Below, one piece after another: positions 9,440 through 12,567 of a DNA stretch of 64,000 nucleotides; within the stretch, counting starts at the first letter, position 1; each line of letters opens with the position of its first letter. The translations under genes were made by a program, and so were the position numbers. The notes under the pieces were generated by a model. That model was not told the origin of the DNA, ran no database searches, and saw only the letters and a program-made list of their open reading frames with translations. This DNA comes from Macrostomum hystrix (Eukaryota; Animalia; Platyhelminthes). Location of the stretch: assembly GCA_950097015.1 (NCBI GenBank), contig CATNEN010000039.1, positions 4,464,001-4,528,000 of the forward strand. The letters are read 5' to 3'.

Positions 9440-9583
9440 ATGTCCAGGCGAGTGTTTAGCCAATTAACACGGTCTGCCGCTGTCTGCTGCTTGCTAACAA
9501 CCGCAGCAGCTGCCGCCGCCGCCGCCACCGCCACTGCGGCCGCCGCCGCCGCGGCTGCTGCAGGCGCTGCAGGAGCTACTGAG
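9440..9583 (+). CDS. Argos/giant-lens-like secreted protein, putative exon 1 (signal-peptide-like segment and poly-Ala)
   Basis: ATG at 9440, MSRRVFSQLTRSAAVCCLLTTAAAA...GATE; donor GAG|GTGAGA at 9584 is phase 0, compatible with the next exon. Confidence 0.55.
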
Positions 9584-9770
9584 GTGAGACACAATTGCTG
9601 TACAGGTAGGGTGGGAGGCAATTTCTCTCGGAGATGTTCCTCTCAAGTTCTGCCTAATTCCAAGATAACGAAGACATGATCAGTTTCGGATCAGGATGAA
9701 GCTCAGGGGCACGTTTTCAAATCTTATGAGGATTCCAGATCGTCATTTCTTTGGATCCAGGCACTTATAA

Positions 9771-10087
9771 CAATTATTATGATTGATTACACCTGCCCCG
9801 ATCGGGTCAGAAGTGCAGCCGACAGCACAGCTACAGATATTGCGCGGCGCATCTGAAGGCTGCCTACGGCTGTTAAGTCCATGGACTGGGGGAATGCCAC
9901 ACCCACCCAGAGTTACCTCAGCCAATGCTGGTACCCATTGAACAGCTGGGTGAACTTAATAAATGCAGAGTTAAGTGTCATGCAGCAGCATGCTGAAGGA
10001 CGCAAACGCGAATCGTTCTGGAGGGGTCAAGAATCGAACCCCCGACATTGAAGTCGTGAGTCCGACGCTCTAACCACTATCTACCGA
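9771..10087 (-). mobile_element. tRNA-derived, CORE-like SINE family 2 in Argos-like intron 1
   Basis: Minus strand reads TAGTGGTTAGAGC (A box)...GGGTTCGATTC (B box), then GACACTTAACTCTGC...CACCCAGCTGTTCAATGGGTACC (CORE-like by eye), then an AT-rich tail. Confidence 0.7.
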
Positions 10088-10200
10088 TTAAAAGGGGATT
10101 TGGAATATTTGAAATATTAGATTTTGTGTTAAATCAAGTTGCTTAGAATTAGACAACGGTATTACGAAGCCCTCTCGTTGATTGCCGACTGCCGCCCTAG

Positions 10201-10396
10201 CAGCCGGGCCGCCTGCAGTGTCCCTGCGCCTACCTGGAGCGCGGTGGATTCTGGGACTCGCCGACAGCCGCCAGCCTGGGTGTCTCCGACCGAGTCTACA
10301 GAGAGCGCCGTTGCAGCTGCCGGCACGAGGCCAACTGCGACTGGAGCTGGCGCGACACGGACAAGTCACTGACAATGGCCTGGCTGGGATCCCACG
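10201..10396 (+). CDS. Argos-like protein, exon 2 (domain 1)
   Basis: NAGNAG acceptor (TAG|CAG| at 10200/10203); encodes [20 protein letters not shown]...[34 protein letters not shown]; donor G|GTGGGC at 10397, phase 1. Confidence 0.75.
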
Positions 10397-10411
10397 GTGG
10401 GCCCGATGTCC

Positions 10412-10950
10412 ACTGTCTGTCCGTCAGTCTGTCAGTCTGTCTGTCTGTCTGTCTGTCTGTCTGTCTGTCTGTCTGTCTGTCTGTCTGTCTGTCTGTCTGT
10501 CTGTCTGTCTGTCTGTCTGTCTGTCTGTCTGTCTGTCTGTCTGTCTATCTGACTGTCTGTCTGTCTGTCTGTCTATCTGTCTATCTGACTGTCTGTCTGT
10601 CTGTCTGTCTGTCTGTCTGTCTGTCTGTCTGTCTGTCTGTCTGTCTGTCTGTCTGTCTGTCTGTCTGTCTGTCTGTCTGTCTGTCTGTCTGTCTGTCTGT
10701 CTGTCTGTCTGTCTGTCTGTCTGTCTGTCTGTCTGTCTGTCTGTCTGTCTGTCTGTCTGTCTGTCTGTCTGTCTGTCTATCTGACTGTCTGTCTGTCTGT
10801 CTGTCTGTCTGTCTGTCTATCTGACTGTCTGTCTGTCTGTCTGTCTGTCTGTCTGTCTGTCTGTCTGTCTGTCTGTCTGTCTGTCTGTCTGTCTGTCTGT
10901 CTGACTGTCTGTCTGTCTGTCATTGTGCCTGACTGTCTGTCTGTCTGTCC
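10412..10950. repeat. (CTGT)n microsatellite filling Argos-like intron 2
   Basis: Direct. Confidence 0.97.
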
Positions 10951-10978
10951 ATATCAAATCCGCCATATCATCACGCAG

Positions 10979-11232
10979 ACATCGGAGACAGTGAAATCCA
11001 GCTGCAGTTCTGCGCCCCGGTCCAACTGCCGGGAGCTCCGCTTTGCCTTGACAACGACAGCGTTGCCTTCACCCTGCGGCAGTCGGGCTGGTGGATCGAC
11101 CTGCACGAGACGCGGTGCCGATGCGGCCCAGGCGGTAGCCCGGCGAACATCCGAGGCTTCCGCTATTCGCGACCGCTGCCGCAGGGAGAGCGGCTGCACG
11201 ACCAGACTGTGGAGTTCGCCTGCGGCAGAATG
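10979..11232 (+). CDS. Argos-like protein, exon 3 (end of domain 1 and domain 2)
   Basis: Acceptor ACGCAG at 10978 (G|AC = Asp); encodes IGDSEIQLQFCAPVQLPGAPLCLDNDSVAFTLRQSGWWIDLHETRCRCGPGG...TVEFACGRM; donor ATG|GTGAGA at 11233. Confidence 0.82.
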
Positions 11233-11318
11233 GTGAGAGAGTCAAAACATCTTCTGAGGAGGACCAGAAAAACACCATCTCAGTCCGTCAGGTGCGAAAT
11301 CCAGTTGCATAAAGAAAG

Positions 11319-12300
11319 GTCCCACTCCATGAAGTACAGAGCTACAAATCCCACTTCATGAAGTACAGAACCTACAAATCCCACTTCATGAAGTACAGAG
11401 CTACAAATCCCACTTCATGAAGTACAGAAGCTACAAATCCCACTCCGTGAAGTACAGAACCTACAAATCCCACTTCATGAAGTACAGAAGCTACAAATCC
11501 CACTCCGTGAAGTACAGAAGCTACAAATCCCACTCCATGAAGTACAGAACCTACAAATCCCACTCCATGAAGTACAGAAGCTACAAATCCCACTCCATGA
11601 AGTACAGAAGCTACAAATCCCACTCCATGAAGTACAGAACCTACAAATCCCACTCCATGAAGTACAGAACCTACAAATCCCACTCCATGAAGTACAGAAC
11701 CTACAAATCCCACTCCATGAAGTACAGAAGCTACAAATCCCACTCCATGAAGTACAGAAGCTACAAATCCCACTCCATGAAGTACAGAACCTATAAATCC
11801 CACTCCATGAAGTACAGAAGCTACAAATCCCACTCCATGAAGTACAGAACCTACAAATCCCACTCCATGAAGTACAGAAGCTACAAATCCCACTCCATGA
11901 AGTACAGAACCTACAAATCCCACTTCATGAAGTACAGAACCTACAAATCCCACTCCGTGAAGTACAGAACCCACAAATCCCACTCCATGAAGTACAGAAC
12001 CTACAAATCCCACTCCATGAAGTACAGAAGCTACAAATCCCACTCCATGAAGTACAGAACCTACAAATCCCACTCCATGAAGTACAGAAGCTACAAATCC
12101 CACTCCATGAAGTACAGAAGCTACAAATCCCACTCCATAAAGTACAGAACCTACAAATCCCACTCAATGAAGTACAGAACCTACAAATCCCACTCCATGA
12201 AGTACAGAACCTACAAATCCCACTCCATGAAGTACAGAAGCTACAAATCCCACTCCGTGAAGTACAGAAGCTACAAATCCCACTCCGTGAAGTACAGAAG
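11319..12300. repeat. 30-bp minisatellite (CTACAAATCCCACTCCATGAAGTACAGAA[G/C]), ~33 copies, Argos-like intron 3
   Basis: Direct periodicity. Confidence 0.97.
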
Positions 12301-12327
12301 CGAAAAATCCCGAACCCGCGCGCCAAG

Positions 12328-12567
12328 GTCGAGTGCGGCAGCGCCGACCAGCCGTGCTACCTGGAATCGCTTAACCAGTTGGGTCAGAGAGTCAGCGGCC
12401 GGGTCAGATGCACTTGTCCGGCCGGCAGCCACTGCCCAGTGTACACCGGCCTGGGTGCCAGGATAATCACTCCGTCAGCTGAGTTAAGCAACGGTACCGA
12501 CAGCGAAGGCAACGAGGGCGAGGGCGAGCGTCCGAGGATCGAACTGCTCTGCAGGCCAGACCCGTGA
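12328..12567 (+). CDS. Argos-like protein, exon 4 (domain 3, terminal)
   Basis: Acceptor CCAAG at 12327 (alternative in-frame CAG at 12297); encodes VECGSADQPCYLESLNQLGQRVSGRVRCTCPAGSHCPVY...IELLCRPDP*, matching the Argos D3 pattern C-x4/5-QPC...CxCPxGxxCP...C. Confidence 0.82.
   Translation, partial: VECGSADQPCYLESLNQLGQRVSGRVRCTCPAGSHCPVYTGLGARIITPSAELSNGTDSEGNEGEGERPRIELLCRPDP

What the first reader, a model, noticed from the sequence alone, without database searches (positions are those of the whole stretch)
9440..12567. Hidden four-exon Argos/giant-lens-like gene (candidate secreted EGF-ligand sink) in an apparently non-arthropod genome
Seen: four GC-rich exons separated by a SINE, a (CTGT)n tract and a 30-bp array splice with matching phases (0/1/0) into ~277 aa. 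The ORF track shows only fragments of it and misses exon 3 in this frame. After the N-terminal segment the cysteines fall as 6+4+6=16. Established: Drosophila Argos is a secreted three-domain disulfide-rich clamp that sequesters the EGF ligand Spitz. As I recall its sequence, it has the same 6/4/6 layout and landmarks (KLCEPVHKLPVC vs QFCAPVQLPGAPLC here; HCRC vs RCRC; FAC vs FAC; QPC...CQCPKGHRCP vs QPC...CTCPAGSHCP). Inference: this is an Argos homolog in what looks like a flatworm, implying ligand-sequestration control of EGFR signalling, or a repurposed Argos-fold secreted protein. The first Cys pair is compressed to C-P-C.
Basis: partly seen in the sequence, partly recalled or inferred. 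Interest (0 to 1): 0.8.

Follow-up and report, generated by a model that had tools for sequence, protein, structure and literature searches.

The report
Flatworm Argos-like secreted protein gene
This is a real, spliced four-exon flatworm gene for a predicted secreted, cysteine-rich relative of the fruit-fly growth-factor trap Argos; it likely works as an extracellular ligand clamp (untested), but Argos-like proteins outside insects, including this gene's close Macrostomum relative, are already in print, so it is a sound but fairly ordinary find.

Summary
The gene is real. Contigs of 4 runs (one study) skip its introns. The 6+4+6 cysteines and phases 0/1/0 are confirmed. The protein belongs to Pfam DUF5731 (E 1e-23), found here only in Macrostomum lignano and tapeworms, and is 63% identical to M. 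lignano Mlig013187. Argos kinship is supported but distant. Giant-lens was the only PDB hit in 2 of 8 searches (E 0.011, 0.0034; 13 cysteines in register) and a weak top hit in one more. The ESM Atlas put an Argos cluster first for a paralogue. Pfam Argos was never hit, and my two AlphaFold models were too poor to test the fold. Khilji et al. 2025 already describe a protostome-wide Argos-like 'two-finger' family and print this gene's M. lignano relative as representative of Cluster F, apart from Argos (Cluster C). Their snail gene has the same exon/domain layout and phases. EGF trapping is the likeliest mechanism (about 0.45) but untested. New here: DUF5731 is the flatworm branch of this family and reaches tapeworms.

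The parts
9244..9439 (+). Transcribed 5' leader (contigs begin at 9244-9249; true start not shown by contigs); holds an in-frame upstream ATG at 9296 opening a 30-codon frame that stops before 9440
9440..9583 (+). Coding exon 1 (48 codons): basic start, hydrophobic stretch and poly-Ala tract; predicted signal peptide
   Evidence: hydropathy only; no signal-peptide predictor on hand
9584..10203 (+). Intron 1, phase 0, with a dispersed SINE-like repeat at about 9782-10079 (tRNA-like A/B boxes on the minus strand at 10077 and 10039)
   Evidence: Rfam and ARAGORN blank
10204..10396 (+). Coding exon 2: most of predicted domain 1 (C54, C56, C85, C87, C93) with the C-A-x-L-E-R-G-G motif that is invariant in the 9 family members aligned
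10397..10978 (+). Intron 2, phase 1, filled by a (CTGT)n tract 10413-10949
10979..11232 (+). Coding exon 3: end of predicted domain 1 (C124) and all of predicted domain 2 (C135, C159, C161, C194); Pfam DUF5731 match
11233..12327 (+). Intron 3, phase 0, filled by a 30-bp tandem array (33 copies, 11320-12311)
12328..12567 (+). Coding exon 4: predicted domain 3 (C200, C207, C225, C227, C233, C272) with a variable acidic loop, and the stop codon
12568..12667 (+). Start of 3' UTR, a 24-bp tandem repeat; by record length one contig ends near 12633; first AATAAA downstream at 13231 (use not shown)

Best explanation
This is a spliced, transcribed four-exon gene of the flatworm DUF5731 family whose product is predicted to be a secreted protein of three disulfide-tied two-finger (Argos-like) domains, and it likely acts as Argos does, clamping a small growth-factor ligand (an EGF-type one is the best guess) between domains 2 and 3 so that less reaches its receptor. 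Shown: gene structure, splicing, 16 cysteines, family membership, 63% identity to M. lignano Mlig013187. Inferred with high confidence (about 0.9): Argos-like fold and secretion, with predicted bonds C54-C85, C56-C93, C87-C124, C135-C159, C161-C194, C200-C225, C207-C233, C227-C272, transferred from the published two-finger connectivity. Inferred with low confidence (about 0.45): ligand trapping of an EGF-type ligand. Feedback induction by EGFR signalling is not examined at all.
For: Spliced contigs. DUF5731 E 1.1e-23. All 16 Cys kept in both M. lignano relatives and 14 of 16 in 6 tapeworm proteins. Giant-lens 3c9a is the only PDB sequence hit for the paralogue P0008 (E 0.011) and for a profile of P0008 plus window exons (E 0.0034, 160 positions across all three domains, 13 Cys in register by my count), and the top of 2 weak hits for exon 4 (E 0.82). 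ESM Atlas on P0008: first hit an Argos cluster, score 0.92, 211 of 256 features shared; its two best structure rows were a mollusc cluster and an Argos cluster, TM only 0.42-0.45. Khilji 2025 (PMC12514838) prints a M. lignano protein as representative of a three-domain two-finger cluster; by eye that sequence is P0024 from residue 23, the window protein's nearest relative. The snail endogenous Argos-like gene has four exons with signal on exon 1, domain 1 on exon 2 plus the start of exon 3, domain 2 on exon 3, domain 3 on exon 4, and phases 0,1,0, the same as here. All three domains, including domain 3 on which Spitz binding relies, are present. M. lignano has 8 EGFRs (PMC4914847).
Against: No Pfam Argos match. 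Five of eight PDB sequence searches did not return Argos: exon 3, profile A2, tapeworm P0015, the nearest relative P0024, profile A6. Only 5 of the 10 best Atlas hits with a family agreed on it, a count the tool flags as doubtful. Argos and the M. lignano protein fall in different clusters of a 12-cluster family that includes venom proteins; no member but Argos has a known ligand, and the C. elegans member has no knockout phenotype. Against P0024, domain 1 is far better kept (61 of 71) than the two domains that bind Spitz in Argos (37 of 60; 21 of 37 for the domain 3 core), although family-wide invariance is similar in the three domains (11 of 65, 7 of 56, 5 of 32 non-Cys positions).
Confidence: 0.45

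Rival explanations
1. Same Argos-like fold and secretion, but a different partner: a neural or matrix-associated modulator that binds a receptor, channel or non-EGF ligand, as many Ly6/uPAR three-finger proteins do, possibly through the conserved domain 1 motif.
For: The family has 12 clusters with Argos in only one; the Aplysia member is highest in pedal ganglia and the C. elegans member is enriched in neurons and the anchor cell. Domain 1 is the best-kept part between the window protein and P0024, and C-A-x-L-E-R-G-G is invariant from Macrostomum to tapeworms. Identity to Argos is too low for Pfam Argos.
Against: All three domains are retained in the Argos order. The only family member with a known partner binds an EGF domain. 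Anchor-cell expression of the worm member would also fit EGF signalling (recalled: the anchor cell makes LIN-3/EGF).
Confidence: 0.4
2. A two-finger protein used as a gland secretion (prey capture, defence or adhesion), as in centipede and cone-snail venoms.
For: Two-finger proteins were recruited to venom in centipedes, turrids and cone snails.
Against: The gene has the exon layout and phases of the endogenous snail gene (0,1,0), not of the conotoxin genes (0,2,0). It is conserved from a free-living flatworm to tapeworms, and there is no tandem paralogue in the 64-kb window.
Confidence: 0.08
3. DUF5731 is an unrelated cysteine-rich family and the likeness to Argos is chance.
For: Best PDB E-values are only 0.0034-0.011, and 5 of 8 searches gave no Argos hit; no Pfam Argos match.
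Against: Argos was the single hit among 177,635 sequences twice, with the Cys pattern in register over three domains. A language-model search agrees. A published PSI-BLAST from a Capitella member retrieved the M. lignano cluster. The exon/domain layout matches the snail gene.
Confidence: 0.07

Closest known systems
Macrostomum lignano BOX15_Mlig013187 (PAA54300.1; P0024), Cluster F of the protostome two-finger (2FTX) family of Khilji et al. 2025 (PMC12514838)
   Same: 146 of 230 residues identical (63%), all 16 Cys with near-identical spacing, C-P-C first pair, sister row in the tree (88/94, not starred). Probable orthologue.
   Different: Longer poly-Ala N-terminal segment; domain 3 loop diverged (10 of 28). 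The supplement labels the printed sequence PAA79353.1, which in this database is the 40%-identical paralogue P0008.
Pfam DUF5731 (PF19002)
   Same: Exon 3 matches positions 3-84 of 108 at 84 bits, cut-off 27; 9 of 9 aligned relatives match.
   Different: The Pfam model covers only the end of domain 1, domain 2 and the start of domain 3, and carries no functional or fold annotation; the name occurs in no paper of the library.
Drosophila Argos / Giant-lens (PDB 3c9a, 3cgu; Pfam PF11581)
   Same: Three-part Cys layout with 13 Cys aligned in register; predicted secretion; domain 3 present.
   Different: Below Pfam Argos detection; different sequence cluster; lacks the long N-terminal region and the 119-residue insertion in domain 1 that Argos has; first Cys pair is C-x-C; ligand unknown.
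Endogenous Argos-like gene of Pomacea and Conus snails (PMC12514838, section 2.5)
   Same: Four exons, phases 0,1,0, identical assignment of signal and domains to exons.
   Different: Exact intron positions could not be aligned here (snail genes not available to the tools); function unknown there too.

Membership tests
Pfam DUF5731 (PF19002) | Score above the curated cut-off | tested here: met
   84.2 bits vs 27.1 on exon 3 alone
Protostome three-domain two-finger (2FTX, Argos-like) proteins | Conserved 6+4+6 cysteine pattern alignable to Argos | tested here: met
   16 Cys; 13 aligned in register with 3c9a in the profile alignment, which does not reach the first two and the last
Protostome three-domain two-finger (2FTX, Argos-like) proteins | Clear homology to a published member | tested here: met
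   63% over 230 aa, E 4e-102, to P0024, whose sequence from residue 23 matches by eye the printed Cluster F representative
Protostome three-domain two-finger (2FTX, Argos-like) proteins | Three domains of two beta-hairpins each | tested here: inconclusive
   AlphaFold2 models at mean pLDDT 37 (P0008) and 44 (exon 3) are too poor; fold searches with them are uninformative
Protostome three-domain two-finger (2FTX, Argos-like) proteins | N-terminal signal peptide, no membrane anchor | tested here: inconclusive
   Hydrophobic N-terminal stretch (KD11 up to 2.05) and no later membrane-like segment (KD19 max 0.85); hydrophobic leaders in relatives; no signal-peptide predictor on hand
Protostome three-domain two-finger (2FTX, Argos-like) proteins | Four-exon layout with phases 0,1,0 (as in the snail endogenous genes) | tested here: met
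Argos proper (Pfam PF11581; Cluster C) | Match to the Pfam Argos profile | tested here: not met
   No match at E up to 10 for 4 of 4 single exons and 9 of 9 relatives; the joined window protein and P0024 were not scanned
Argos proper (Pfam PF11581; Cluster C) | Binds an EGF ligand 1:1 between domains 2 and 3 | not testable with these tools
Argos proper (Pfam PF11581; Cluster C) | Transcription induced by EGFR signalling (negative feedback) | not testable with these tools
   Only contigs of one study available
Two-finger conotoxins | Two domains only, intron phases 0,2,0 | tested here: not met
   Three Cys groups and phases 0,1,0

The most novel reading that the evidence does not exclude
DUF5731 is the flatworm Argos: a true EGF-ligand trap descended, with its intron layout, from a protostome ancestor. 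Ligand-sink control of EGFR would then predate insects, be open to RNAi tests of regeneration and gut patterning in Macrostomum, and be present in tapeworms, where the secreted protein could also meet host EGF-family ligands.
Probability: 0.3. Interest if true: 0.6.

Novelty: new member of a known kind. Interest (0 to 1): 0.3.

Why it matters
Argos is the textbook secreted EGF trap and was long treated as an insect device. A 2025 paper proposed that a large protostome family may share the job but tested no member for EGF binding. This gene gives a transcript-confirmed flatworm member, ties the unannotated Pfam family DUF5731 to that family, extends it to tapeworms, and shows the same exon/domain layout as in snails, which favours common descent. 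Since M. lignano has an expanded EGFR set and flatworms are open to RNAi (recalled), it is a convenient place to test the published hypothesis. It opens no new kind of system.

Tried and rejected
Acceptor 10201: rejected in favour of 10204 by contig coordinates. Structure prediction: P0008 with 9 rows gave pLDDT 37, exon 3 with 11 rows gave 44; Foldseek on the first had 0 matches at E up to 0.001, VIA wide gave best Z 4.1 on unrelated beta proteins and nothing for exon 3; Argos was not listed, which such models cannot be taken to exclude. ESM Atlas on exon 3 alone: no usable hit. Word-index search with exon 3, longer lengths: none of 48 candidates scored, although relatives exist, so these searches miss members; the absence of trematode, planarian or non-flatworm hits is not evidence of absence. 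Three of 7 hits (P0001, P0006, P0007) are repeat-rich unrelated proteins and were dropped. P0003, P0005, P0025 and the truncated models were left out of the tree and domain counts. Tapeworm loss of two domain-1 Cys as support for the disulfide map: inconclusive, because the surviving Cys aligns to C87 in one alignment and to C85 in two others. No whole genome is held, so paralogues in this species could not be counted; none lies elsewhere in the window. One ad hoc promoter word gave 1 match against 0.84 expected: nothing. Literature searches without a flatworm Argos paper: argos+EGFR+Macrostomum 0, DUF5731 0, argos+EGF+Spiralia+evolution 1 not followed up, Argos-like+secreted+EGF 1 irrelevant, 2FTX only Khilji 2025 relevant, dsx-c73A+Argos 0; PMC4914847 has 0 occurrences of argos.

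Full report
Observation. The intronic (CTGT)n tract and 30-bp array are as described. A run search listed 12 runs, of which 4 from one study (X9-X12, kind not on record) hold 0.35-0.39 of the words. Their contigs cover the exons without a differing letter and skip the introns. On exon 3, 4 of 4 runs have a loose end upstream that reads as the end of exon 2 and one downstream that reads as the start of exon 4. For the first joint, the exon-2 match begins at 10202 in 3 of 4 runs, and in the 2 records spanning both exons the length between fits only an acceptor at 10204. The product is 276 aa, phases 0/1/0. Contigs start at 9244-9249. So the gene is real and transcribed, with one three-base correction.

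Family. Exon 3 matches Pfam DUF5731 at E 1.1e-23; no exon matches Pfam Argos. A search of 1.84 billion representatives gave 7 hits, 4 of them DUF5731 proteins of Macrostomum lignano and Hymenolepis, 3 spurious. A profile search gave 13 proteins: those with an organism name are M. lignano or tapeworms, and 3 unnamed ones resemble the tapeworm sequences. A search with exon 2 found the nearest relative, M. lignano Mlig013187 (P0024): 146 of 230 residues identical, same 16 Cys, sister to the window protein in a 9-row tree at 88/94. A second M. lignano paralogue (P0008) is 41% identical, six tapeworm proteins 30-33%. Tapeworms keep 14 of the 16 Cys. Several database models of relatives break off just where the window's introns 2 and 3 lie, which suggests shared intron positions (inference). 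That the window comes from a Macrostomum-like flatworm is inferred from these relatives.

Is it Argos-like? I ran eight PDB sequence searches. Giant-lens (3c9a) was the only hit for P0008 (E 0.011) and for a profile of P0008 plus window exons (E 0.0034, 160 positions, 13 Cys in register by my count), and the top of two weak hits for exon 4 (E 0.82). Five searches did not return it, including the nearest relative P0024. Pfam Argos was not hit by 9 of 9 relatives. The ESM Atlas ranked an Argos cluster first for P0008 (0.92; 211 of 256 features; the family is on 34% of members, and only 5 of the 10 best family-bearing hits agree), then a mollusc cluster; exon 3 alone gave nothing. My two AlphaFold2 models (pLDDT 37 and 44) were too poor for a fold test. 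Taken alone this is moderate support. The literature makes it strong. Khilji et al. 2025 (PMC12514838; I read the abstract, sections 2.2, 2.5, 2.6, 2.7 and 3 in full, passages of 2.3 and 4.1, and supplementary file 4, two long entries cut; the file with Figures S11-S12 was too large to read) report about 1800 PSI-BLAST hits among protostomes in 12 clusters, ten of them three-domain, with Argos in Cluster C. Their Cluster F representative is a M. lignano protein. By eye the printed sequence is P0024 from residue 23, although its label names the accession of P0008. They also describe an endogenous snail gene with four exons, signal on exon 1, domain 1 on exon 2 and the start of exon 3, domain 2 on exon 3, domain 3 on exon 4, with phases 0,1,0, as follows from the conotoxin genes being 0,2,0. 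The window gene has exactly this layout.

How it likely works. Shown: splicing, cysteine pattern, family. Inferred: secretion, from a hydrophobic N-terminus and no later membrane segment and from the leaders of relatives; three two-hairpin domains with bonds C1-C3, C2-C5, C4-C6 per domain (C2-C5 absent in domain 2), transferred from the Tx33.1 connectivity that the authors say is conserved in Argos. In Drosophila, Argos clamps Spitz 1:1 with domains 2 and 3 and is a feedback target of EGFR (PMC9928117, passages; the original structure paper was not held). M. lignano has 8 EGFRs (PMC4914847, passages). The flatworm protein keeps all three domains, so a ligand clamp is the most economical reading, about 0.45. 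Against it: Argos is one of 12 clusters, no other member has a known partner, the worm member has no knockout phenotype, and between the window protein and P0024 the best-kept part is domain 1 (61 of 71) rather than domains 2 and 3 (37 of 60; 21 of 37), though across 9 family members invariance is about even. A non-EGF partner is nearly as likely (0.4). A venom-like role (0.08) and chance resemblance (0.07) are unlikely.

Membership and novelty. It is a member of DUF5731 and of the published three-domain two-finger family. It should not be filed as Argos proper: the Pfam test was not met, and ligand binding and feedback are untested. What I did not find in print: the name DUF5731 in any paper, a flatworm Argos study, or tapeworm members in that paper (0 hits for Echinococcus, Hymenolepis, Schistosoma in its 4 readable supplements; its main text was searched only for flatworm, Platyhelminthes, planarian, Macrostomum, protostome and DUF5731; the unread figure file may hold them). 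An earlier scan note on an arthropod two-domain relative reached a similar verdict; it is not independent support.

Verdict. Real gene, correct structure bar three bases, Argos-like with high probability, function untested, family and nearest relative already published. New member of a known kind; interest 0.3.

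Noticed in passing
PMC12514838 supplementary file 4, Cluster F: The sequence printed under PAA79353.1 / Mlig014663g1 matches by eye PAA54300.1 / Mlig013187g1 (P0024), not the PAA79353.1 sequence held in this database (P0008); the two are 40% identical paralogues.
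   Followed up: partly
window 10198-10203: Tandem TAG-CAG acceptor; contigs fit the distal site, and use of the proximal site would add one Gln.
   Followed up: yes
window 9296-9388: Upstream 30-codon frame in the transcribed leader, in frame with the main ATG and closed by a stop; could damp translation.
   Followed up: no
P0004, P0011, P0012, P0014, P0015, P0017: Tapeworm members lack two of the six domain-1 cysteines and carry a 15-20 residue insertion there; those with full leaders have extra N-terminal cysteines.
   Followed up: partly
window 2641-5533 (+): Exons of a phospholipid scramblase gene (Pfam PF03803) upstream on the same strand.
   Followed up: partly
window 15525-19811 (-): Exons of a class I/II aminotransferase (Pfam PF00155); looks like glycine C-acetyltransferase from the ORF translations (name recalled).
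   Followed up: partly
window 41955-45206 (-): Long cadherin-repeat frame with a membrane-like segment, protocadherin-type (Pfam PF00028, PF08266); appears interrupted by a short 13-bp repeat near 43731-43795.
   Followed up: partly
whole window: Introns and intergenic DNA are filled by dozens of distinct tandem arrays (70 rows, periods 3-89).
   Followed up: no
P0025: A M. lignano database model named H(+)-exporting diphosphatase is in fact a garbled model containing pieces of this family's gene.
   Followed up: no
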